64,000 nucleotides of DNA, from positions 517,746-581,745 of the forward strand of contig CAWDWB010000009.1 in the NCBI GenBank assembly GCA_963805925.1, written 5' to 3'. The stretch is from an uncultured Acidobacteriota bacterium (GTDB taxonomy: Bacteria > Acidobacteriota > Terriglobia > Bryobacterales > UBA6623). The translations under genes and the position numbers were made by a program. The stretch's first letter is position 1, and each line of letters starts with the position of its first letter. Shown here one piece after another: positions 34,903 through 53,994 of the stretch. The notes under the pieces were generated by a model. It was not told the DNA's origin. It saw only the letters and a program-made list of their open reading frames with translations, and searched no databases.

Positions 34903-36243
34903 TCAATAACTGTCGAATAACGTGACCGTGTAGTCCTTGCTGGCCAGCATGTTTTCCAAGACCGGCCAGAGTCCCTGATGGGTGTCCGTGGCGACCCATG
35001 CTTGGCGCTGCGCTTCGCTGCGGAAGCTCAGTACGAAGCGATAGTTCATGCGGGCAGGCGGCTTGCCCATCAAGGCCGAGTCCAGTTTGAGCAACTTGAG
35101 GTCGATGTATCCCGGCTGCTTCGCGGCCGCCGGCCGGAACTCGGTTTCGAAACTGCGAACGAAGGCCGCTTCCTTCGCCGGGTCGACGTTCAAATCGACG
35201 TGCAACTCGATCCCGCGCGGAGCTGGTCCGTAGAGCGGGCGCATGCCGGGCACCGATAGCTTGATGCGGTAAAGGCTGGTTTCGGCCGTCATGTAGAGCG
35301 ACTTGCCGTCATCGCCCCAGGCGGCGTTGGCAGGACTCTCGGGCGGTTGGATTGTGCCCAGGTGCTTGCCGCTGGCGTCAAAAACCCAAACTCCGCCGGG
35401 ACCCGAACCGTAGACGTTGCCGGCTTCATCGACCTTCATGCCGTCCGGCAACCCGGCAGCTGGCTCGTTGGTCACATCGGCAAAAACTCGCCCGTTGGAC
35501 ACGGTGCCGTCGGCGTTCACGTCGTAGGCCATCCAGAACCTGTGGTTCTCATCGGAATTCGAAACATAGAGAGTCTGGTAGTCGGGCGAAAAGGCGATCC
35601 CATTGGGACGCGTCAGATCCTTCACCAAGACTTGTAACTCGCCGTTGGACAAGCGATAGACGCCGTTGAAGTCAAGTTCTTTTGCCGGGTCGTCATCTTG
35701 CGCCGGCAAGCCATAGGGCGGATCGGTGAAGTAGAGCGAACCGTCGCGATGGAAAACGAGATCGTTCGGGCTGTTGAGCTTCTTGCCCTCGAAGCTGTCG
35801 ACGAGCGTCGTCACCGTGCCGTCTTTGGCGATGCGGGCGATGCGTCGGTTGCCGTGTTGGCACAGCAGTACCGAGCCGTCCTTGTCATAGGTCATCCCGT
35901 TGGGGCCGATGAAGCCCCCCGCCGGCAGACTGTCTCCGTCATATCCGCCGGGACGCAGCACCTCGGTGACGGTTCCGTCGGGAGCGTACTGGCGCACCAC
36001 GTTGCCGACGACGTCGCTGAACCATAGCGAACCGTCCTCGCGCCAAAGCGGACCCTCGATAAAGCTGAAGCCGCCGGCAAGCTTCTCGATCTCGGCGCCT
36101 GGCGGGACGATGGCGTCCAAGGCGGGGTCGAGCCGCTGGACGCTCCCTGTTGAGGGTGCTTCGGGTTCGGGAGCTGGAGGCGGCGCCGTGCAGCCGAAAG
36201 CGACGAGAACAAACAGAGTGAATAGAGAGTGTTTTTTGAGCAT
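34903..36243 (-). CDS. SMP-30/gluconolactonase/LRE-family lipoprotein with a C-terminal ABM-like domain
   Basis: ATG at 36243. MLKKHSLFTLFVLVAFGC contains a lipobox. FIEGPLWREDGSLWFSDV and six-blade propeller-like repeats. The last roughly 100 aa resemble an antibiotic-biosynthesis-monooxygenase fold. Confidence 0.7.
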   Translation of the reverse strand: MLKKHSLFTLFVLVAFGCTAPPPAPEPEAPSTGSVQRLDPALDAIVPPGAEIEKLAGGFSFIEGPLWREDGSLWFSDVVGNVVRQYAPDGTVTEVLRPGGYDGDSLPAGGFIGPNGMTYDKDGSVLLCQHGNRRIARIAKDGTVTTLVDSFEGKKLNSPNDLVFHRDGSLYFTDPPYGLPAQDDDPAKELDFNGVYRLSNGELQVLVKDLTRPNGIAFSPDYQTLYVSNSDENHRFWMAYDVNADGTVSNGRVFADVTNEPAAGLPDGMKVDEAGNVYGSGPGGVWVFDASGKHLGTIQPPESPANAAWGDDGKSLYMTAETSLYRIKLSVPGMRPLYGPAPRGIELHVDLNVDPAKEAAFVRSFETEFRPAAAKQPGYIDLKLLKLDSALMGKPPARMNYRFVLSFRSEAQRQAWVATDTHQGLWPVLENMLASKDYTVTLFDSY

Positions 36244-36439
36244 GAGCAGCGACCAGTTTTGAGAACGCCGCAATTGTAGCTCTTCCGGGCTGCTTGGCGG
36301 AGGGGTGAATCAGTTGACGCAGCGCCGTTGCTGTCCGACAATCGGGCCGGAACGATCAATGCCGAGGAGAACGAAACGGATCGAATGGACTGCGCGTTGG
36401 GCGGGCTTTCTGTTGATCTTGGCGGCCGGCGCCGTTCTC

Positions 36440-36487
36440 GGGGGAAACCGGGGGGAAACCGGGGGGAAACGGGGGGAAACCGGGACA
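36440..36487. repeat. Tandem 11-bp repeat GGGGAAACCGG x4 (one unit lacks a C), ending in the R-element TIR half-site AAACCGGGACA
   Basis: Read directly: gGGGGAAACCGGGGGGAAACCGGGGGGAAACGGGGGGAAACCGGGACA. Confidence 0.85.
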
Positions 36488-37255
36488 TCCATGATAGGTA
36501 TTTGTCAAGGATGGACGCAAGTAGATCCTGAGGCCGGTGGAGAGACCAGCGTTAGTATGGCTCAGCGAAGAGAGAAGCGGACAGAGCCTTACGGGGTCAA
36601 CGGCCAGCGTGACTGACATCCATGAGGCTGCAGCGGGCCTGAGGGCCGTAGCAGAAGTTTCAGCTTAGGGTTAGAGCCGCGTCGGCCTCGAAACAGTCGA
36701 GAACGGTCGCAGGCGGGCCTTACGGCCTTGGCGCAGTGCCCGGATCGGCGCAGGACCGAGCGGGCGGCTTGTCTCCGGCTTCGCCCGAGAATCTTGTGCT
36801 CCTCCTCAGGCCGCTCGCGTACGCGGCCGAAGGGCTCGCTGGAGCGGTCCACGGCGAGAAGGTAAGCGACCAGCTTGCGCGCCACCGCCAGGTCGCGCGG
36901 TTGCGCGAGCGGTGCAATAACTCCCGCTCATGAACGGCCTGGAGTTCGGGGTTGAAGCGAGGCGTCGAGTGTTCGCGGCCTCGTAAGCAGGTGCATGCAG
37001 GTGCTTGTTGCGCTGCTTGCGACAACGGCGCGCGCTGCGTCTTGCCCGACCGACTCGCGTTGCGCCGCGCAGCAGTCAACGCAGTAGCTCACCGCCCGAC
37101 GCACCGAGCTGAATCGCTAGGGTTCAGCGACCTCCAAGGCCCACGTGGAGGGCTCGAAGACCTTGTACCCACGCCGTCGAATGGATTGCCGAAGCGGGCG
37201 ACAGCGTTCTCTCAACAGCCGATGTTGGGCGAGCCCTTGCAGCGAGACGCCGTTC
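36488..37255 (-). mobile_element. Degraded, 5'-deleted copy of the IS110/IS1111-family element (3' arm plus 3' part of the transposase gene)
   Basis: Collinear with 39724..40467 of the intact copy. It starts with the same TCCATGATAGGTATTTGTCAAGGATGGACGC and has many substitutions and indels that break the transposase frame (ORF fragments 36589..36885, 36720..37079). Homology ends at ...GACGCCGTTC. Confidence 0.75.
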
Positions 37256-37271
37256 GGGGAAACCGGGGGAG

Positions 37272-37448
37272 AAACCGGGACAGCCTCAATTAGCATTGGC
37301 CCCATCTCTAAGTCATTGATTCAACTAGATCTACGACGAGAATCGGAGCGGCGCGATATCGCGTCTTTAGGCTGCAACTGATTGAATAATAAAAGCTTCT
37401 GCTCTCAGAACAGATTCTGCTTGATTACAATTGAGGCTGTCCCGGTTT
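37272..37448. mobile_element. R1: 177-bp MITE-like element with perfect 20-bp terminal inverted repeats
   Basis: Left TIR AAACCGGGACAGCCTCAATT (37272-37291), right TIR AATTGAGGCTGTCCCGGTTT (37429-37448). The interior is AT-richer and 100% identical to R2 and R3. Confidence 0.85.
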
Positions 37449-37935
37449 GCCCCACTCGATCTAGCTCCTCGATTAGTTGCAACACCGAAACACGCTCGTC
37501 CTCATGGAGTTCAAACCAACGCCCACCGGTCAAAGTATCGACTGTGGCCTCGGCGATGTATGCGTTCTCGGCATCTGAACTGAACCATACGGAAAGATCT
37601 CCTCTATCGATACAAAGACGATAGTCGAATCGCGAGCCTCCTCCTTCCGTCGAATCCCGTTCTACCGAAACTGTCTCTTCAAGGACGCGCAAGAGTTTTT
37701 GCTTCAGCGATGCAGAAATCCTCTGACTCGAAACCAGATATCTCTCATCCTTCAATGCCGCTGCTGCCACAGCAGTGCGTGTCAGAACTTGCGGCGACAG
37801 GAAGTAGACTCTCATGACGTCATCGGCCGAGACTGCCGTACAGCCCGCGAAGGCCCCAACCCAAGCTGCGGCAACGACAATCGACAACACCAACAATGCC
37901 AACAACCGTCGTGGACTAATGGGCGTAGAAGTCAT
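37405..37935 (-). CDS. Hypothetical lipoprotein, immunity-like orphan; the last 14 codons are read from R1
   Basis: MTSTPISPRRLLALLVLSIVVAAAWVGAFAGC contains a lipobox. AAGGTGA RBS. The ATG overlaps a preceding TGA (ATGA). The ORF leaves native sequence at 37448/37449 and terminates inside R1. Confidence 0.45.
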   Translation of the reverse strand: MTSTPISPRRLLALLVLSIVVAAAWVGAFAGCTAVSADDVMRVYFLSPQVLTRTAVAAAALKDERYLVSSQRISASLKQKLLRVLEETVSVERDSTEGGGSRFDYRLCIDRGDLSVWFSSDAENAYIAEATVDTLTGGRWFELHEDERVSVLQLIEELDRVGQTGTASIVIKQNLF

Positions 37936-38001
37936 ACTTCACCTTTTGTTGGCCGCGCGCCGCTTCTTCGAGCTTGAGCATGGACGCCGCGCTTGTTGGG
38001 G

Positions 38002-38178
38002 AAACCGGGACAGCCTCAATTAGCATTGGCCCCATCTCTAAGTCATTGATTCAACTAGATCTACGACGAGAATCGGAGCGGCGCGATATCGCGTCTTTAG
38101 GCTGCAACTGATTGAATAATAAAAGCTTCTGCTCTCAGAACAGATTCTGCTTGATTACAATTGAGGCTGTCCCGGTTT
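38002..38178. mobile_element. R2: second identical copy of the 177-bp MITE-like element, same orientation as R1
   Basis: Base-for-base identical to 37272..37448. Confidence 0.85.
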
Positions 38179-38204
38179 GCCCCCGGTTTGCCCCCGGTTT
38201 GCCC
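38171..38204. repeat. Tandem 11-bp repeat CCCGGTTTGCC x3, beginning inside the R2 right TIR
   Basis: Read directly: CCCGGTTTGCCCCCGGTTTGCCCCCGGTTTGCCC. Confidence 0.85.
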
Positions 38205-38456
38205 CGCAAGCGAGGCTTCGTGGCGGCTCAGCCGACCGAAGCCGGGGTCGCTCCCGCCCTTCCCCTGACCCCCAAAACGGGGTCCTGCCGCCACCGCTCC
38301 GCTGTACTTCGCTCACTCTTCGGCTCTTACCGGCCCAAACGGTGAACGCCTCCCATCGAAACTACGGTGAACGCCCCTTTTTTCCTGAGTTCACCCGCCT
38401 CCCGCCACGCCACGGGGGTAAAAAGGGCGGTCGTAGGATGTGGCGGGCACGTAGGT

Positions 38457-38903
38457 TTACAGAGTTAACCATCCATTGCCTACAATGCCTAGAATCGTCT
38501 CGAAGTCTCGCCGATCCAATACTTCACTAGTCTCTACTTGGTCATCGGTCCACATTTCGGGGGTGGAGAGCAGTCTAGTCAAGACGATCTGCGAACCTCG
38601 CGGACAACGCATGAGATAGTATTCCCGCACTATGCGGTCGCTGCTCCAATCCTTGTATTCAGAAGCTCGCGCCCAGTGGTGGGTCGAAACCAAATGCTCA
38701 AGCTCTTGATCTCTTCCGGTGCCGTCACCGACAAAAACTGACGCCAGTTTCACTAGCGCATGACCGTCAAGACTGCCCCCACATACCGAACATGGGCTAA
38801 ACCGATCACGGACAACAGCAAGAGTACGGTCGGCAGAGGACATGCGCTTCGGGCGCCAAGCAAATAGCTTTAACAGTCTATCCGACACACTAAGCATCAT
38901 CAT
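38457..38903 (-). CDS. Hypothetical protein, candidate immunity protein for the upstream glycine-zipper toxin tip
   Basis: 148-aa ORF starting 9 nt after the toxin stop, with GGACGAGGAAA-ATG. No recognisable domain. Its position is typical of Rhs/CDI immunity genes. Confidence 0.5.
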   Translation of the reverse strand: MMMLSVSDRLLKLFAWRPKRMSSADRTLAVVRDRFSPCSVCGGSLDGHALVKLASVFVGDGTGRDQELEHLVSTHHWARASEYKDWSSDRIVREYYLMRCPRGSQIVLTRLLSTPEMWTDDQVETSEVLDRRDFETILGIVGNGWLTL

Positions 38904-38912
38904 TTCCTCGTC

Positions 38913-39711
38913 CTAGTTCAGCCAATCGTAAATCTTGGTTGCCACTTTTTCGCCACCGATTCCGCCGGCGATGCCTCCACCTAGGGCACCTATAACTCCG
39001 CCAATCGCCGCTCCGGGAACGGCTCCCGCCCCACCAAACCATACGCCAACCGCTGCACCGACTTGCGCCCCAGCGGCACCGCCAATACTCCCAAGTGCAA
39101 CCGCTCCTGCCCACGTACCACCTTCCTGGGCTAGTGCACGCGATTTATTGTCTGCGGTTGCTACGTTATACGCTGATACGCCTGCACCGACAACCATGAG
39201 CGCTGGCCCGGCTTTACCCGCAACCCCCATCGCTGCGTCAACAGCAGCATTAGATTTCGATGCGGTACCGCCAACTCTCGCGGCTTCATTGGCGATAGGG
39301 CGCATAGTTTCGGCGATCGCCGCCCCCGTTGGGGAACTGGCGGCACGGGCCTCGATCTTGAGAGCGGTCCTTGCCGCCGATGCAACAGGATCTCCTTGCG
39401 GTGCTCCCTGCAACGTTTGCAGGCCCTGGTTGTAATTGGCTCGGGCGGCAGCATCCTGTGTTGCCTGGGTGCCCACACTCACGGCGGCACCTTGAACTGC
39501 CCGGCCCGCCGTCTCTTCATCCGTACAACGTTGTGTCCCATCCGGGCAACTGTCAGCTAGTCCATTCGGGTCAACTAGGCGAAGAGGATTATTAAGAACG
39601 TAAGCGTACGCGTTCCACGATTGAGGCTGAGACGCTCGAGCTGCCGCATTTCCCGGATCAACGCTCGTAAATCGCCCGAGGCTCGCCGACATGTACCGCG
39701 CCCCGAAGTGG
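38913..39711 (-). CDS. Orphan Rhs C-terminal tip: end of the RHS core (FGARYM...GRFTSVDP...NNPLRLVDPNGL) plus a glycine-zipper-rich C-terminal toxin domain; 5'-truncated
   Basis: RHS repeat-associated core signature, then a variable C-terminal domain ending in long G/A-rich zipper helices (GAAVGVWFGGAGAVPGAAIGGVIGALGGGIAGGIGG). Upstream homology ends at the R3/IS boundary. The ORF-track N-terminus MDVPVS is translated from TIR/IS sequence. Confidence 0.7.
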
Positions 39712-39723
39712 GAAACCGGGACA

Positions 39724-41159
39724 TCCATGATAGGTATTTGTCAAGGATGGACGCAGTCATCCTGAGGCCGGTGGAGAGACCAGCGTTAGTAGGTCAGCGA
39801 AGAGCGAAGCGGACCGAGCCTTACGGGGTCAACGGGCCAAGCGTGACCAGACATCCATGAGCTGCAGCGGGCCTGAGGGCCGTAGCAGAAGTTTCAGTTA
39901 GGGTTAGAGCCCGTCGGCCTCGAAACAGTCAGAACGGTCGCAGCGGGCCTTACGGCCTTGGCGCAGTCCCGGATCGGCGAGGACCGACGGGCGGCTTGTC
40001 TCCGGCTTCGCCCGGAATCTTGTTCTCCTCCTCAGGCCGCTCGCGTACGCGGCGCGAAGGGCTCGCCGGAGCGGTCCACGGCGAGCAGGTAAGCGACCAG
40101 CTTGCGCGCCACCGCCAGCGTCGCGCGGTTGCGCGAGCCGTGCAATAACTCCCGCTCATGAACGGCCTGGAGTTCGGGGTTGAAGCGCGGCGCTAGTTTC
40201 GCCGCTTCGATCAGCACGGTCTGTAGGTGCTTGTTGCGCTGCTTGGACAAGGGCGCGCGTTGCGTCTTGCCCGCCGACTCGCGTTGCGCCGCGCACAGCC
40301 CGCAGTAGCTCACCGCCCGACGCACCGAGCTGAATCGCTCGGGTTCAGCGACCTCCAAGGCCCAGGTCAGCGCCGTCACTTGGCCGACGCCGCGAATCGA
40401 TTGCAAGCGGGCGACGCGTTCTCTCAACAGCCGATGTTGGGCGAGCCCTTTCAGCAGACGCCGTTCAAGATCTTCAAACGTCTCCAGCATTCCGCGGCTG
40501 AGAGCCAGCAGCTCGATCGCCGACTCCGGCGTGTGTTCGAGCGAATCGAGCAACTGGTAGAAGTAGCGTTTGCCGTGCAGCCGGTCCTTGACGTACTCCT
40601 CTCCGCACTCCATCAACAGGCCGGATATCTTGTTCTTCAGCCGCACCGCTTCGCGCACCAACAGGTTGCGGTAACGCAACACCCGCCGCAACTCGCGAAT
40701 CTCCCCCGGCGCCATGTAGCAGCCCGGCAACAGATCGCAGCGCGCCAGATCGCAGATCTTCTCCGCATCGAGGCGGTCGTTCTTCTTCTTGGCGCAGGCG
40801 ATCGCCTTCAGCATCGCCGGATGCGCCACTTGCAGCTCGGCCGCGTAGGGTTCCAAATGATCGTAAATCCAACCGGTGAACAGCGTCGCCTCCAACGCTC
40901 CGACCCACGGCCCGGCAACGCCTCGGCCCACTCGCTCAACGCCGCCCGCGTGGCCGCCACGCTGCCGGACGCGACCTTCTCTCCGGCAGTCGTCTTCACT
41001 GCATAGCTCACCGTTTTCTTGTGGACATCGAGCCCTACGTAGTAGAAACTCTCCATGGAATCCTCCTGGGTATGACTCGAGGCGCGCCGCTTCGCGGCTC
41101 GTCCTCGCTTTCTTTGTCCTCCAGGAGGATTCTTCTTGGCGCTCACCTATACATCAAAA
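39724..41159 (-). mobile_element. IS110/IS1111-family insertion sequence (about 1.44 kb) inserted in the left TIR of R3
   Basis: Flanks reconstitute the R TIR: AAACCGGGACA|IS|GCCTCAATT, with ACA/CA shared at both junctions. No terminal IRs, but subterminal IRs are present: ATGATAGGT (39727-39735) versus CACCTATACATC (41144-41155). Short 5' arm (about 100 bp) and long 3' arm (about 310 bp), as in the IS1111 subgroup. Confidence 0.85.
40032..41056 (-). pseudogene. IS110-family (DEDD/RuvC-like) transposase, interrupted by a 1-nt frameshift
   Basis: The N-terminus MESFYYVGLDVHKKTVSYAV is the IS110 DEDD_Tnp hallmark. The C-terminal part (40032..40931 frame) carries the Transposase_20-like region (SIRGVGQVTALTWALEV). 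The frames join as ...AEALPG|PWVGALEATLF if one C is added in GGGCC(C)G near 40912-40916. Confidence 0.85.
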
Positions 41160-41327
41160 CAGCCTCAATTAGCATTGGCCCCATCTCTAAGTCATTGATT
41201 CAACTAGATCTACGACGAGAATCGGAGCGGCGCGATATCGCGTCTTTAGGCTGCAACTGATTGAATAATAAAAGCTTCTGCTCTCAGAACAGATTCTGCT
41301 TGATTACAATTGAGGCTGTCCCGGTTT
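41160..41327. mobile_element. R3: third copy of the 177-bp MITE-like element; its first 11 bp lie at 39713..39723 on the other side of the IS
   Basis: 41160..41327 is identical to positions 10-177 of R1/R2. 39713..39723 = AAACCGGGACA. Confidence 0.85.
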
Positions 41328-41519
41328 GCCGAACCGGTTCCAACTCTGCGGATCGCCTACCCGTCCGGACGCCAAAAGTGGATCAGCGCTTGTGAACCGC
41401 CCCAGGGCCGACGACATATACCTGGCCAGGAAGTAATCCAACCCGGACTCTTGATCGCGTTCTTTGGCGGTGGACCGTTCCGCATCGTACGCGCACCAGC
41501 GCAACAGACCATGGGTCAA
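41328..41519 (-). pseudogene. Orphan Rhs core fragment (…AKERDQESGLDYFLARYMSSALGRFTSADP…PQSWNRF) truncated at the R3 boundary
   Basis: RHS core signature without YD repeats upstream or a toxin domain downstream. The reading frame runs into the R3 TIR and stops there. Confidence 0.6.
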
Positions 41520-42124
41520 AACCTGAAAAGTACCACTTTCTGCTTTGAACTTGATTGGTCAGGCTGCAAAACGCGACTCGCAAGGTTGCCGTCATGCACC
41601 GCGACAATAGTCGTTTCCCGGCCAGGCAGTAGATCGATCAAGACTTTGCCGTCCAATCCCGTTTGATACCACTTCTGACTTTCAGCATTTGCATCCCGGA
41701 CAAGAATCTCAGCGGATGCAACTGGAATCCCATCTCTATTTCGCACTTCCACTTGGCAATGCTTTACACGTCCGATGGTGAAGGCGTTGCCTGTCGTAGG
41801 CAAAACCTCCAGTGCTAACTTCAGGTCGACCGGATCGGTGTTGACCAAGAACTCTCGAACGGTCGTTCGACATAATCCATACGGACAAGTCGCAATAATC
41901 TGATAAAGCCCCATCGCAAGGTCTTGCGTCGGAACGGCGCCATTCCGATTCGTCAAGGCCCTTAAGCTTTCTCCCCTTCCTTCAAGAGATCTAACGATTA
42001 CAAGAACATCCGGGAAACCTAAACCTGATTTGTCCACGGTCACGACATGCACCTGGGCCGCTTGGGTGCAAACAGAGATACCCAGGAACAAGAATGAGAG
42101 ACGAACTTGCTTCCACTGGATCAT
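41516..42124 (-). CDS. Secreted CarboxypepD_reg-like protein; candidate immunity protein for the upstream HExxH toxin tip
   Basis: ATG at 42124 overlaps the toxin stop (ATGA). Signal peptide MIQWKQVRLSFLFLGISVCTQAAQ followed by two Ig-like beta-sandwich-type segments. Confidence 0.5.
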   Translation of the reverse strand: MIQWKQVRLSFLFLGISVCTQAAQVHVVTVDKSGLGFPDVLVIVRSLEGRGESLRALTNRNGAVPTQDLAMGLYQIIATCPYGLCRTTVREFLVNTDPVDLKLALEVLPTTGNAFTIGRVKHCQVEVRNRDGIPVASAEILVRDANAESQKWYQTGLDGKVLIDLLPGRETTIVAVHDGNLASRVLQPDQSSSKQKVVLFRF

Positions 42125-43350
42125 GGACAGGGCCCTCCCGGCGTATTTGCCACGCACGCAACCTTTTGAGCCTGCTGCGCTGCCTGAGCTGCTCCTTGTT
42201 GAATGATGGTTGCCGCCGCCGCGTCATACTGGACATTCGGTTGGAACTTTTGGCCAGCGGCTCCGAGCGCTTTCACCGTTTGTTGAGCGCGCTTCTCTGC
42301 CGTTCCTCCAGTTGTGTTTTGGGCACCCGGCCTAGATGACGCGTCTCCGGCGGCGCCCGCCGCCGCCGCTCCCTGGAAACTGGTTGCGGAAAGCATGTCC
42401 GTGACATGTTGATCTTCATGCGCAAACGCCGTCAACCCCACTGTGAAGTTGCTCTTCCCTGTCGCTTTGGCCACCGTTGAGATGTTCGAATTGTCTAGAG
42501 TGACGTTGATCCCTGCTACCGCTCCAGGAGAACCAGGAACTACGACCGCTGCACCAGCTGTAACGTTCTGAACCCCATTTCCGGTACTCACGGGTAAGCG
42601 GCCCTGGTCGAACGTGACCGGAAGATTGCTCGCGGCAATCGCGTTGACCGTTGCAGCGCCCTGTGGCGTTCTGAGCATCGTAGAGATGTACTCCTGGACC
42701 TGCCCCTGCATCCCAGGGGCAACGACAAAGTATTCACCAGTCGGATCGACGTATTTTAGCGGGTTGTTCCGCGTGTAGGTGTATCGGTTCCATGTTTGGG
42801 GCTCGCCCTCTGAGTACGGACCCGGGTCAGGGCTCGTAAACCGACCTTGGGCGCTCGCCATGTACCGCGCCCCGAAGTAGTCGAGGCCGCTCTCCGCGTC
42901 GCGTTCTTTGGCGGTAAAGAGCTGATCAAAGCCTGCCGGGTCGCCGTAGCCCGTCACGCTCGCGCGCGCCCCGTACGTATCCGGGATCTCTTCGCCGAAG
43001 GGGAAGAAGTCGTAGCGCGAGACGACGGCCGGCGTCGTGCTGTCGTCCGTCACCAAGCGCGTCGAGCCCAAGTGATCGGTCGTGCGGAAGTAGCTGCCCG
43101 CGGGCGTCGTCGACGCGGCGGTCGAGTACTCCGCCGCTAGCCGTCCCGTGGCGTCGTAAACGTAGGTCGTCTCTGCGCCCGTGTTGTAGTCGATCTTGCG
43201 GACGCGGTTGCCTTCGCCGTCATAGACGTACTCGGCGTCGGCGTTCGCGCTGTTGCACGTCCCCAGCGTGTTCTGGCGGGCTCCGTCCCCTTTGGCCTTT
43301 GGCTGGTCCCCTTTGGCTGCCTTTGGCTGAGAATGTGCTGTGACCGTCAC
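42121..43350 (-). CDS. Orphan Rhs tip: last YD repeats plus RHS core (…AKERDAESGLDYFGARYM…NNPLKYVDPTGEYF) plus C-terminal domain with an HExxH motif
   Basis: YD-repeat consensus (YVYDGEGNRV, YVYDATGRL). Core signature, then a roughly 220-aa variable domain containing AFAHEDQHVTD. Only a GTG start immediately after an in-frame TGA. The N-terminal roughly 24 codons are not Rhs-like. Confidence 0.7.
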   Translation of the reverse strand: MTVTAHSQPKAAKGDQPKAKGDGARQNTLGTCNSANADAEYVYDGEGNRVRKIDYNTGAETTYVYDATGRLAAEYSTAASTTPAGSYFRTTDHLGSTRLVTDDSTTPAVVSRYDFFPFGEEIPDTYGARASVTGYGDPAGFDQLFTAKERDAESGLDYFGARYMASAQGRFTSPDPGPYSEGEPQTWNRYTYTRNNPLKYVDPTGEYFVVAPGMQGQVQEYISTMLRTPQGAATVNAIAASNLPVTFDQGRLPVSTGNGVQNVTAGAAVVVPGSPGAVAGINVTLDNSNISTVAKATGKSNFTVGLTAFAHEDQHVTDMLSATSFQGAAAAGAAGDASSRPGAQNTTGGTAEKRAQQTVKALGAAGQKFQPNVQYDAAAATIIQQGAAQAAQQAQKVACVANTPGGPCP

Positions 43351-53091: not shown

Positions 53092-53994
53092 GTGGGATTC
53101 CAGAGCATCTTGACCTACCTGCCCGAGCACGACGAATCCCAAGAGGTTATCGAGTGTTCCGCGCGCTTGGCGCGGGAGTGCGAAGCGAAGTTGGCGCTTG
53201 CCGAAGTACTGACGCCGCTGCCGGTCTACCTCAGGCAGCCGGCATACGGGTATCCGGCTCTGTCGGAGACGCTGGAGCACGAAGCTAAGGAAGAATTGCA
53301 GAGTGTGGCTGCTCCGCTGCGCGAGAGCGGACTCGACGTCAGCACGGCGGCGCTGACCGGCAAGCCCCACGAGGAACTTGTTCGTGAAGCGTTGCGTGCC
53401 GGACACGACCTCGTAATCGCCCCTGGGCATTCGGAAGGCGGCAGCGCCCGCGCCACGTCGACGGCAGTTCGGCTATGTCGGCTTTGTCCTGTCCCGGTCT
53501 TGGCGATCAGCGCAGGCCACGCCAAGCCCTTCCGCCGCATCTTGGCGACAGTAGATCCGCTGTCCCGGGACGACGAGGGGAAGGAACTGAACGAACGCGT
53601 CATTGAGACGGCTCTGGAATTCGCCCGATTGGAAGGCGGCGAAGTTGCGGTGCTGTACGTTTGGGGCGAAGACCTGCCGCCGGGTAGCCTGGAGTCTCAC
53701 GGGAAACAGATTGAGCAGCTTGCGGAGTCCGCTTTGGAGGACTTGCTCAAACCCTACAAGGACGAGATCGACGCCGAAGATGTTCTGCTGGTATTCGGCG
53801 AACCGTCAACCACGATCTGCCGGGTCGCCACTGAACAAGAAATGGACCTAGTCGTGCTAGGGACCATCGCGCGCAGCGGCGTGCAGGCGCTTTGGATCGG
53901 CAACACGGCGGAGAAGACGCTGGCCGAACTTGAGCTATCGGTCCTGGCGGTCAAACCTTCGGCCTTCGTCTCACCGCTGGATACCGAATCTTAG
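53092..53994 (+). CDS. Universal stress protein, tandem UspA domains
   Basis: Two USP modules, each ending in the G-x2-G-x9-G(S/T)-like motif (VLGTIARSGVQALWIGNTAEK). GTG start. Confidence 0.8.
   Translation: MGFQSILTYLPEHDESQEVIECSARLARECEAKLALAEVLTPLPVYLRQPAYGYPALSETLEHEAKEELQSVAAPLRESGLDVSTAALTGKPHEELVREALRAGHDLVIAPGHSEGGSARATSTAVRLCRLCPVPVLAISAGHAKPFRRILATVDPLSRDDEGKELNERVIETALEFARLEGGEVAVLYVWGEDLPPGSLESHGKQIEQLAESALEDLLKPYKDEIDAEDVLLVFGEPSTTICRVATEQEMDLVVLGTIARSGVQALWIGNTAEKTLAELELSVLAVKPSAFVSPLDTES

What the first reader, a model, noticed from the sequence alone, without database searches (positions are those of the whole stretch)
39713..41327. IS110/IS1111-family element inserted exactly inside the 20-bp TIR of the MITE, twice at the same sequence
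The intact IS splits the R3 left TIR as AAACCGGGACA | IS | GCCTCAATT. The degraded copy at 36488 begins after the identical AAACCGGGACA. The two insertions share the same orientation, the same junction nucleotide and a shared ACA/CA core, and neither has terminal IRs. This is the sequence-specific targeting behaviour known for IS1111-group elements, for example those that target the TIRs of other transposons or REP elements. Here the target is the TIR of a MITE associated with toxin cassettes.
Basis: partly seen in the sequence, partly recalled or inferred. Interest (0 to 1): 0.65.

Follow-up and report, generated by a model that had tools for sequence, protein, structure and literature searches.

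The report
RNA-guided IS1111-type element inside a REP repeat
A small mobile element of the IS1111 group, which uses its own guide RNA to choose where it lands, sits at one fixed position in the end-repeat of a short REP-type repeat; this habit is already known for the family, so the case is real but ordinary.

Summary
A 1,438-bp IS110/IS1111-family element (39724-41161, transposase on the minus strand) splits the left 20-bp end-repeat of R3 as AAACCGGGACA | IS | GCCTCAATT. R1 and R2 are exact empty sites. A truncated, decayed second copy (36488-37255) starts after the same 11 bases in the same orientation, but its inner junction is lost.

Three corrections apply.
- The "intact" copy has a 1-nt frameshift in a G run, near 40914.
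- The element does have sub-terminal inverted repeats, with the 7/3-nt terminal extensions typical of IS1111.
- The "MITE TIR" is a REP-type repeat. In environmental contigs the same sequence flanks RAYT-like (IS200-type Y1) transposase genes in inverted orientation, so R resembles a REPIN.

The mechanism is well supported. The 308-nt region after the transposase gene contains a conserved stem/internal-loop RNA element with strong covariation. Its 5' loop arm (GAUCCGGGAC) is complementary to the target G|TCCCGG, and its 3' arm lies where relatives copy their left flank. Across about 27 relatives the guides track each element's own flanks (permutation p<=1e-4). At least 13 divergent relatives occupy the same REP position.

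This is a new member of a known kind (compare ISPa11 in REPs and IS4321/IS5075 in Tn21 ends). One oddity is that the 3' guide fits the REP poorly.

The parts
36440..36487 (+). REP remnant to the left of the degraded IS. It consists of four 11-bp tail units (GGGGAAACCGG) ending in the outer REP half AAACCGGGACA (36477-36487).
36488..37255 (-). Degraded, 5'-truncated IS copy. It retains the right end, the non-coding region and the C-terminal part of the transposase gene, and carries 55 substitutions and 24 indel events against the full copy. It is followed directly by GGGGAAACCGGGGGAG and an intact R1.
37272..37448 (.). R1, an uninterrupted REPIN-like doublet with two inverted 20-bp REP ends. 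Both ends are empty target sites.
38002..38178 (.). R2, an uninterrupted doublet with two empty target sites. Three CCGGTTTGCCC tail units follow it at 38171-38203.
39713..39723 (+). Outer half of the R3 left REP (AAACCGGGACA). On the transposase strand this is the right flank of the target, TG|TCCCGGTTT.
39724..41161 (-). IS1111-type insertion sequence of 1,438 bp, counting one copy of the TG core.
39724..39744 (-). Right end of the IS. It comprises the 3-nt extension GGA, the sub-terminal IR ACCTATCAT (39727-39735) and a conserved TTGACA (39739-39744). The TTGACA is a candidate -35 box of a circle-junction promoter; this is an inference.
39843..39859 (-). Internal copy of the right end plus core (CATGGATG|TCTGGTCAC), conserved in relatives. 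It may be part of a donor-binding portion of the RNA. In relatives it is the start point of 142-bp tandem duplications.
39910..39991 (-). Target-binding stem-loop of the presumed seek/bridge RNA. The outer stem is 39978-39991 paired with 39910-39922. The 5' guide GAUCCGGGAC is at 39966-39975, the inner hairpin at 39938-39965, and the 3' guide UUCUGAC-UG at 39926-39934.
40032..41056 (-). Transposase gene encoding 341 aa once a 1-nt frameshift near 40914 is repaired. It has DEDD_Tnp_IS110 and Transposase_20 domains and an AGGAGG ribosome-binding site before the ATG at 41056.
41145..41161 (-). Left end of the IS, made of the 7-nt extension TGTTTTG (core TG included) and the sub-terminal IR ATGTATAGGT.
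41162..41327 (+). Remainder of R3, from the inner half of the left REP (GCCTCAATT...) through the right REP. It is 100% identical to R1 and R2.

Best explanation
An IS1111-group insertion sequence has integrated by site-specific recombination at the dinucleotide TG of AATTGAGGC-TG-TCCCGGTTT, read on the transposase strand. The IS consists of a DEDD/serine transposase gene, a 308-nt 3' non-coding region, sub-terminal inverted repeats and 7/3-nt terminal extensions. The target sequence is the 20-bp terminal repeat of R. R is a 177-bp AT-rich doublet of two inverted REP-type repeats. It is probably a non-autonomous (REPIN/MITE-like) relative of elements that carry a RAYT-like Y1 transposase between the same repeats.

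The site is chosen mainly by an RNA made from the 3' non-coding region. A conserved stem holds an internal loop. The 5' arm of the loop (GAUCCGGGAC) pairs with one DNA strand of the core G plus the right flank TCCCGG. The 3' arm (UUCUGAC-UG) is meant to pair with the other strand of the left flank plus core. In the window only the 5' arm fits the REP well, so both insertions look half-matched.

A second, older copy entered the same position of another REP copy, then lost its 5' half and decayed.

Shown here: the family assignment, the exact junctions and empty sites, the RNA structure covariation, the covariation of guides with flanks among relatives, and the REP/RAYT association of the target sequence elsewhere. 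Inferred: that the RNA is made and bound, that transposition passes through a circular intermediate with a junction promoter, that the window copy is or recently was active, and that a RAYT gene exists in this genome.
For: Family. The protein matches Pfam PF01548 and PF02371 and NCBIfam 'IS110 family RNA-guided transposase' at 194 bits against a cutoff of 140. Its nearest solved structures are the ISCro4 and IS621 recombinases. It is 341 aa long, the long non-coding region lies 3' of the gene, and the element has sub-terminal IRs with 7/3-nt extensions. These are the IS1111 criteria given in PMC11187229.

Junctions. define both junctions and the empty sites.

Same site in relatives. L208 (89% aa, identical 5' guide) sits at ..ATTGAGGC|TG. 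L098, L100, L193 and L196 (54-72% aa) sit at ..G(G/C)C|TG..TG|TCCCGGTTT. Thirteen metagenome loci show AAACCGGGACA followed by an IS1111-type right end. L001 (81% nt) sits in GAGGC|TG|TCCCG.

RNA element. Of 16 consensus pairs, 14 show compensatory changes, 97% of cells are paired, 0 of 500 shuffles reach the observed values, and slid controls collapse.

Guides. The 5' guide is complementary to the right flank and the 3' guide matches the left flank, each better for an element's own flanks than for permuted ones (p<=1e-4, n=27 and 23). Transposases 89-96% identical to the window's carry different guides and sit in correspondingly different flanks. One example is the pair GAAAAGGGGAC with TCCCCTTTGA and GGCUC with GGGCTC; another is AGUGAC with TCACT.

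Target identity. Y1_Tnp / REP_Tyr_transpos genes are flanked by inverted copies of the same sequence in L089, L111 and L133. Short doublets with other spacers occur in L121, L138, L143, L169 and L179. R folds into a long hairpin with z = -5.3. Related IS copies lie next to RAYT genes in L037, L041, L066 and L199.
Against: The 3' guide of the window IS matches the REP left flank at only 4 of 7 positions, while L208 has a perfect GAGGC. The pairing model therefore explains only half of this particular site.

Two other CTGTCCCGG sites in the window, at 53489 and 53560, are unoccupied.

No other copy from the source genome could be retrieved: the genome and metagenome scans did not return it and a neighbouring protein is not on record.

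No RAYT gene lies in the 64-kb window. The NCBIfam RAYT score of 74 bits is just under the 80-bit cutoff. The 20-bp repeat is not itself palindromic, as classical REPs are.

No Rfam family matches the RNA element. RNA expression is untested.

The loci used for the permutation test are partly related, so the p-values are optimistic.
Confidence: 0.82

Rival explanations
1. There was only one insertion event. An R copy that already carried the IS, or a larger segment holding it, was duplicated, and one copy then decayed. On this view the 'twice at the same sequence' is not independent evidence of targeting.
For: R copies are themselves repeated and 100% identical, so the locus clearly duplicates or homogenises sequence. 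Both IS copies share the same unusual 3' guide. Only the outer junction of the degraded copy survives.
Against: Sequence beyond the 14 shared bases differs: there are four tail units at 36440-36487 but one unit after unrelated RHS sequence at 39700-39712. The IS copies differ by 7% substitutions and 24 indels, whereas the adjacent R1 is identical to R3. Targeting is in any case shown independently by relatives at the same site.
Confidence: 0.2
2. The target is the TIR of a conventional DDE-transposon-derived MITE, and the RAYT association seen elsewhere is coincidental.
For: R has perfect 20-23-bp TIRs, is short, AT-rich and multicopy. No RAYT gene is present in the window.
Against: No target-site duplication flanks any R copy. 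No DDE transposase with these ends was found in any locus. By contrast, at least three contigs carry Y1/RAYT-like genes bracketed by the same 18-20-nt sequence with its 11-bp tails.
Confidence: 0.1
3. The site is recognised by the transposase protein reading REP sequence or structure, without an RNA guide.
For: The window IS fits its site with only one of the two putative guides. Part of the site, C-TG-TCCC, is conserved across the whole clade and could be read by protein.
Against: Near-identical transposases (89-96% aa) sit in different flanks that follow their loop sequences. The loop is held in a covarying stem. seekRNA and bridge-RNA guidance has been shown experimentally for this family (PMC11187229, PMC11208160).
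Confidence: 0.05
4. AAACCGGGACA is part of the IS, or was carried along by it, rather than being target sequence.
For: The same 11 (in fact 14) bases precede both copies.
Against: R1 and R2 hold the uninterrupted 20-mer with the exact join. Relatives end at ..CATGGA-TG followed by many different flanks.
Confidence: 0.02

Closest known systems
ISPa11 (IS1111 family; inserts into Pseudomonas aeruginosa REP sequences; seekRNA shown in PMC11187229)
   Same: It has a DEDD transposase of about 340 aa, sub-terminal IRs and a long 3' non-coding region that encodes a short RNA. That RNA has one segment complementary to the top strand placed 5' of one complementary to the bottom strand, and the two overlap at the crossover. 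It inserts at one position of a REP in one orientation.
   Different: The host phylum differs; the nearest relatives of the window IS are in Bryobacterales/Acidobacteriota MAGs. The REP family differs too, being non-palindromic and carrying 11-bp tail arrays, and the core is TG. RNA expression, circles and activity are untested here. The window copy's 3' guide is poorly matched to its site.
IS4321 / IS5075 (IS1111 family; target the 38-bp TIRs of Tn21-family transposons; Partridge & Hall 2003, cited in PMC11187229 and PMC11208160)
   Same: These are IS1111-type elements that land at one fixed position and orientation inside the terminal inverted repeat of another mobile element, which can disable that end.
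   Different: Their target is the end of a DDE (Tn3-family) transposon. Here it is the terminal repeat of a REP/RAYT-type element and its 177-bp non-autonomous doublet.
IS621, ISPpu9 and ISPpu10 (IS110 group; REP targets; bridge RNA; PMC11208160, PMC12288879)
   Same: They show RNA-guided recombination into REPs, with a target-binding internal loop whose two arms read the two strands around a 2-nt core.
   Different: In the IS110 group the RNA is encoded in the left end, upstream of the gene, and long sub-terminal IRs are absent. The window element has the IS1111 layout.
REPIN-RAYT systems (PMC3116915, PMC3337134)
   Same: R consists of two inverted copies of a short repeat separated by a spacer, is multicopy and identical, and folds as a hairpin. 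The same repeat brackets Y1/RAYT-like genes in other contigs.
   Different: The spacer is long (137 bp) and the repeat is not itself a palindrome. The RAYT-like genes seem to be multicopy in some contigs (L141, L199), which is more IS-like than a domesticated single-copy RAYT. No RAYT was seen in this window.

Membership tests
IS110 superfamily (DEDD transposase IS) | Transposase with an N-terminal DEDD/RuvC-like domain and a C-terminal Transposase_20 domain carrying the conserved serine | tested here: met
   PF01548 (E 1e-17) and PF02371 (E 1e-18). NF033542 at 194.5 bits against a cutoff of 140. The serine aligns with the S of the S-G motif of ISCro4, although the next residue is A rather than G.
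IS1111 group | Long non-coding region downstream of tnp and short region upstream | tested here: met
   308 nt lie 3' of the gene (39724-40031) and 105 nt lie 5' of it (41057-41161). The criterion is taken from PMC11187229.
IS1111 group | Sub-terminal inverted repeats (usually 11-13 bp, near-perfect) with asymmetric terminal extensions of 7 bp on the left and 3 bp on the right | tested here: met
   The left end reads TGTTTTG + ATGTATAGGT and the right end reads ACCTAT-CAT + GGA. This gives 9-10 matching bases with one 1-nt bulge and extensions of 7 and 3 nt. The repeat is slightly shorter and less perfect than typical.
IS1111 group | Transposase of 330-350 aa | tested here: met
   341 aa after repair of one frameshift. 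A 99%-identical uninterrupted 341-aa protein, P0001, exists.
IS1111 group | Insertion at one specific site in one orientation, without target-site duplication beyond the core | tested here: met
IS1111 group | seekRNA/bridge RNA from the non-coding region, with a top-strand match 5' of a bottom-strand match | tested here: inconclusive
   A structured element with covariation is present and its guides covary with flanks in relatives. However, the window's own 3' guide fits poorly, and RNA production and binding were not testable.
IS1111 group | Circular intermediate with a junction promoter | not testable with these tools
   Joining the ends gives TTGACA-N18-TTTGAT with TG upstream, which is suggestive only. 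Reads or PCR would be needed.
REP / REPIN-RAYT system (for the target R) | The repeat flanks a RAYT (Y1 HUH transposase) gene in inverted orientation | tested here: met
   This holds for L089, L111 and L133. Pfam Y1_Tnp scores above its cutoff. NCBIfam REP_Tyr_transpos scores 73-74 bits against a cutoff of 80. It was seen in other contigs, not in the window's genome.
REP / REPIN-RAYT system (for the target R) | REPIN: two inverted REPs separated by a spacer, multicopy, hairpin-forming | tested here: met
   Three 100%-identical copies. The 20-23-bp ends pair, with z = -5.3.
REP / REPIN-RAYT system (for the target R) | The REP unit is itself an imperfect palindrome | tested here: not met
   AAACCGGGACAGCCTCAATT has no internal hairpin. 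Only the tail units can pair (CCGG-GGAAA-CCGG), as seen by inspecting the sequence. Targets of related IS, such as L001 and L013, are palindromic.
REP / REPIN-RAYT system (for the target R) | A cognate RAYT gene in the same genome | not testable with these tools
   None lies in the 64-kb window, and the rest of the genome was not available.
Classical MITE (DDE-transposon derivative) | TIRs plus flanking target-site duplication and an autonomous DDE partner with the same TIRs | tested here: not met
   TIRs are present, but no direct repeat flanks R1-R3. The only coding partners found with these ends are Y1/RAYT-like.

The most novel reading that the evidence does not exclude
The window element may be a natural 'half-matched' insertion. 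Its 5' guide is programmed for this REP, while its 3' guide (CUGAC) is the one that close relatives use for ..CTGAC|TG sites. Taken with the mix-and-match guides among transposases 89-96% identical, this would mean two things. First, IS1111-type elements retarget in nature by exchanging single guide arms. Second, one matched arm is enough for integration in vivo. The same clade also amplifies its right-end module in tandem by recombining with an internal copy of its own end.
Probability: 0.3. Interest if true: 0.5.

Novelty: new member of a known kind. Interest (0 to 1): 0.3.

Why it matters
The finding documents the known IS1111 habit of landing in REPs or in the ends of other mobile elements, here in soil Acidobacteriota-type genomes and against a previously undescribed REP family with 11-bp tail arrays. 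The relatives also form a natural series in which nearly identical recombinases carry different guide arms and sit in matching sites. That series is useful raw material for people who engineer bridge or seek-RNA recombinases, for example to study mismatch tolerance, arm modularity and a TG core. For annotating this locus, it means two things: the repeat R should be treated as REP/REPIN-like, and the IS is a passenger of R, not part of the RHS toxin cassette system.

Tried and rejected
Rfam search of 36000-42000 at E<=1 found nothing.

An exact-pattern scan of metagenome contigs for the window IS right end gave 0 hits. A viral-contig scan for the junction pattern gave 8 chance matches, none R-like.

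I considered whether the 11-bp tail repeats are scars of IS insertion and excision. I rejected this because the same tails flank IS-free REPs, including those around RAYT genes.

I considered whether the many 1-nt indels between the two copies mean the 'full' copy is the damaged one. I rejected this because the full copy is co-linear with L001 and L002 and the degraded copy carries the extra bases.

I searched for a donor-binding loop complementary to the left end and found no convincing match. Only the internal copy of the right end (39843-39859) was identified.

The single-sequence fold of the whole non-coding region is not significant (z = -1.4). The structural claim rests on the alignment alone.
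Full report
**Observation.**
The 20-mer AAACCGGGACAGCCTCAATT is present five times in the window: at both ends of R1 (37272-37448) and R2 (38002-38178) and at the right end of R3 (41308-41327). None is expected by chance. The three R copies are identical over their whole length.

At R3 the left 20-mer is split. AAACCGGGACA (39713-39723) is followed by 1,438 bp of foreign DNA (39724-41161), then by GCCTCAATT... (41162 onward). Removing 39724-41161 restores an R copy exactly, so R1 and R2 serve as empty sites. The only ambiguity is the ACA present at both junctions, which is TGT on the other strand.

The 22-mer AAACCGGGACATCCATGATAGG occurs a second time at 36477-36498. It opens a 768-bp fragment (36488-37255) that aligns with the 3' part of the element in the same orientation.

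Four corrections are needed.
- The full copy's gene is broken by a 1-nt loss in a G run near 40914. An uninterrupted 341-aa protein 99% identical to my repaired translation exists in public data. The break could be a real mutation or a homopolymer sequencing error.
- The second copy is truncated at its 5' side and heavily decayed, with 55 substitutions and 24 indel events. It is followed by GGGGAAACCGGGGGAG and a complete R1, so only one of its two junctions can be compared.
- Comparison with relatives shows that the full copy, not the degraded one, is co-linear with the family.
- The element has no terminal IRs but does have sub-terminal ones.

**What the inserted element is.**
The repaired protein has the DEDD_Tnp_IS110 and Transposase_20 domains. 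It scores 194 bits on NCBIfam 'IS110 family RNA-guided transposase', whose cutoff is 140. Its nearest solved structures are the ISCro4 and IS621 recombinases.

The layout is that of the IS1111 group as defined in PMC11187229:
- a protein of 341 aa;
- a long non-coding region (308 nt) downstream of the gene and a short one (105 nt) upstream;
- sub-terminal inverted repeats, ATGTATAGGT and ACCTAT-CAT;
- terminal extensions of 7 nt (TGTTTTG) on the left and 3 nt (GGA) on the right.

**What the target is.**
A scan of metagenome contigs for the junction pattern showed that AAACCGGGACA|GCCTC(A/G)AT is a widespread terminal sequence. It is often preceded by the same 11-bp units (GGGGAAACCGG) that precede it in the window.

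In L089, L111 and L133, inverted copies of the sequence bracket a gene of about 240 aa. That gene matches Pfam Y1_Tnp (IS200-like). Its best NCBIfam match is REP-associated tyrosine transposase, at 73-74 bits, just under the 80-bit cutoff. Homologues lie beside the same sequence in L090, L125, L137 and L141.

In L121, L138, L143, L169 and L179 two inverted copies are 150-215 bp apart, with unrelated spacers. R itself folds as a long hairpin through its ends (z = -5.3), is AT-rich (46% against 61% GC) and has no flanking direct repeats.

R therefore fits the definition of a REPIN: two inverted REPs with a spacer, mobilised by a RAYT (PMC3337134, PMC3116915). This fits better than a DDE-type MITE. 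There are reservations. The 20-mer is not itself palindromic, the spacer is long, and no RAYT gene lies in this window.

The tail arrays are a property of this repeat family, not a scar of the IS, because they also flank IS-free copies.

**Is the site chosen specifically?**
A scan of one genome per species returned 80 loci with relatives, and the closest are in Bryobacterales MAGs.
- Forty-one distinct insertions of a 73%-identical element all have C|TG..IS..TG|TCCC(C). The right flank is clearly more constrained than the left.
- L001 (81% nt identity) sits in ATTGCGAGGC|TG|TCCCGCAAT, which shares AGGCTGTCCCG with the R repeat.
- Metagenome elements only 54-72% identical in protein (L098, L100, L193, L196) sit at ..G(G/C)C|TG..TG|TCCCGGTTT...
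- Thirteen loci show AAACCGGGACA followed by an IS1111-type right end.
- L208 (89% aa identity) sits at ..ATTGAGGC|TG, with another copy of the REP nearby.
- Several relatives lie directly beside RAYT genes: L037, L041, L066 and L199.

The clade as a whole is a REP specialist.

**How the site is chosen.**
The 3' non-coding regions share a conserved element. In the window it has an outer stem (39978-39991 paired with 39910-39922), an internal loop and an inner hairpin (39938-39965).

On 22 diverse sequences RNAalifold predicts 16 pairs, 14 of them with compensatory changes. In the explicit count 97% of cells pair, no shuffle out of 500 reaches any observed measure, and sliding the partners destroys the signal.

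The 5' arm of the loop ends in ..GGGAC and is complementary to the core G plus the right flank. Examples of guide and flank:
- window: GAUCCGGGAC with G|TCCCGG;
- L100: GGAACCGGGAC with G|TCCCGGTTTCC;
- L025: UGUUGGGGAC with G|TCCCCAACA;
- L069: AGUUUGGGGGC with CCCCCAAACT;
- L070: AAUUGGGGUC with G|ACCCCAATT.

The 3' arm lies just before UGUUUCGAGG and repeats the left flank plus core. Examples are GAGGC in L001 and L098, GAAGCC in L141, UCAAC in L079, UAUAC in L058 and UGACC in L069.

I restricted the comparison to the variable positions. Each arm then fits its own element's flank better than permuted flanks (p<=1e-4; n=27 and 23). The loci are partly related, so this value is optimistic.

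The most telling evidence comes from the closest relatives found through the protein database. Transposases 89-96% identical to the window's carry different arms and sit in correspondingly different flanks:
- P0002-type elements carry GAAAAGGGGAC and GGCUC, and sit at ..GGGCTC|TG..TG|TCCCCTTTGA.
- P0008-type elements carry AGUGAC, and sit next to TCACT/TCACC.
- P0003-type elements carry CUCUGAC, and sit at ..GGCTGAC|TG.

The order of the arms (top-strand match 5' of bottom-strand match) and their overlap at the core agree with the seekRNA described for IS1111 elements in PMC11187229. They also agree with the right-end location of predicted bridge RNAs in PMC11208160.

**The oddity.**
The window element's 5' arm is the REP-specific one and is identical to those of L208 and L212. 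Its 3' arm (UUCUGAC-UG) matches the REP left flank TTGAGGC only at positions -1, -3, -6 and -7. By contrast L208 has GAGGC, and CUGAC-type arms elsewhere go with CTGAC/TCGAC flanks. Both window copies share this arm.

Either one matched arm is enough, or specificity has further inputs. Two other CTGTCCCGG sites in the window are empty. I cannot decide between these options with sequence alone.

**History of the locus.**
This part is inference. An older copy entered a REP whose outer half and four tail units survive at 36440-36487. Its 5' half and the rest of that REP were later lost, and a young R1 now abuts it. A younger copy entered the left REP of R3.

The flanks outside the shared 14 bases differ, and the IS copies are far more diverged than the R copies. 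This favours two events, although duplication of an already occupied R cannot be excluded.

**Verdict.**
This is a real and correctly described feature whose behaviour is already known for the family. ISPa11, IS621, ISPpu9 and ISPpu10 insert in REPs, and IS4321/IS5075 insert in Tn21 ends.

The new elements are the host group, the REP family and a tidy natural example of guide-arm exchange. I rate it as a new member of a known kind, of modest interest.

Noticed in passing
L034:4282-5939; also L009, L018, L017, L033, L019, L026, L029, L014, L005, L040: Related IS copies in Bryobacterales MAGs carry tandem duplications of their right-end module: 12 units in L034 (eleven of 142 bp and one of 95 bp), 4 x 142 bp, 3 x 330 bp, and units of about 610 bp. 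Each unit starts at an internal ..TG|TC.. site and ends at the true right end. The 142-bp unit starts at an internal copy of the right end, CATGGATG|TCTGGTCAC. This looks like recombinase-made exchange with pseudo-sites, comparable to the modular circles of ISPpu9 (PMC12288879). The window IS has the same internal site (39843-39859) but no duplication.
   Followed up: partly
window 36440-36484, 37257-37279, 38171-38203; L089, L121, L125, L138, L141, L169: The REP carries variable-number tails of an 11-bp unit (GGGGAAACCGG / CCGGTTTGCCC; 1-6 copies). Analogous 8-16-bp tandem repeats follow the right end of related IS in L048, L020, L022, L033, L019, L004, L044, L014 and L207. What generates them is unknown.
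   Followed up: partly
window 38457-43350: R copies sit at the borders of orphan RHS C-terminal cassettes. R3 lies between a core fragment ending ..GDPQSWNRF (41304-41519, minus strand) and a cassette starting (Y)FGARYMSASLGRFTSVDP (38913-39709, minus strand). The conserved core-end DNA recurs at 39652, 41377 and 42821. No large RHS gene is present, only a 409-aa piece with a weak RHS_repeat hit.
   Followed up: partly
L095:621-788: There are four tandem units of about 45 bp, AAACCGGGACATCCATGATCCTTCCG. Each unit is the REP half joined to only the last 8 nt of an IS1111-type right end, with no IS body.
   Followed up: no
L197:1438-2670 and L207:1887-3233: A second, longer IS110-family transposase gene (410 and 448 aa) lies tail-to-tail immediately after the closest relatives of the window IS. 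This may be a nested or clustered insertion.
   Followed up: no
window 53489-53497 and 53560-53568: Two further CTGTCCCGG sites lie inside a coding region. They match the 5' guide as well as the REP does but carry no IS.
   Followed up: partly
window 40200-40260 (protein ..QRESAGK..): The conserved S-G of IS110/IS1111 transposases reads S-A in this protein. The serine is kept when aligned to ISCro4.
   Followed up: no
window 36488-37255: The decayed IS copy has about as many single-base indel events (24) as half its substitutions (55), an unusually indel-rich decay. It lies next to an R copy with no changes at all.
   Followed up: partly
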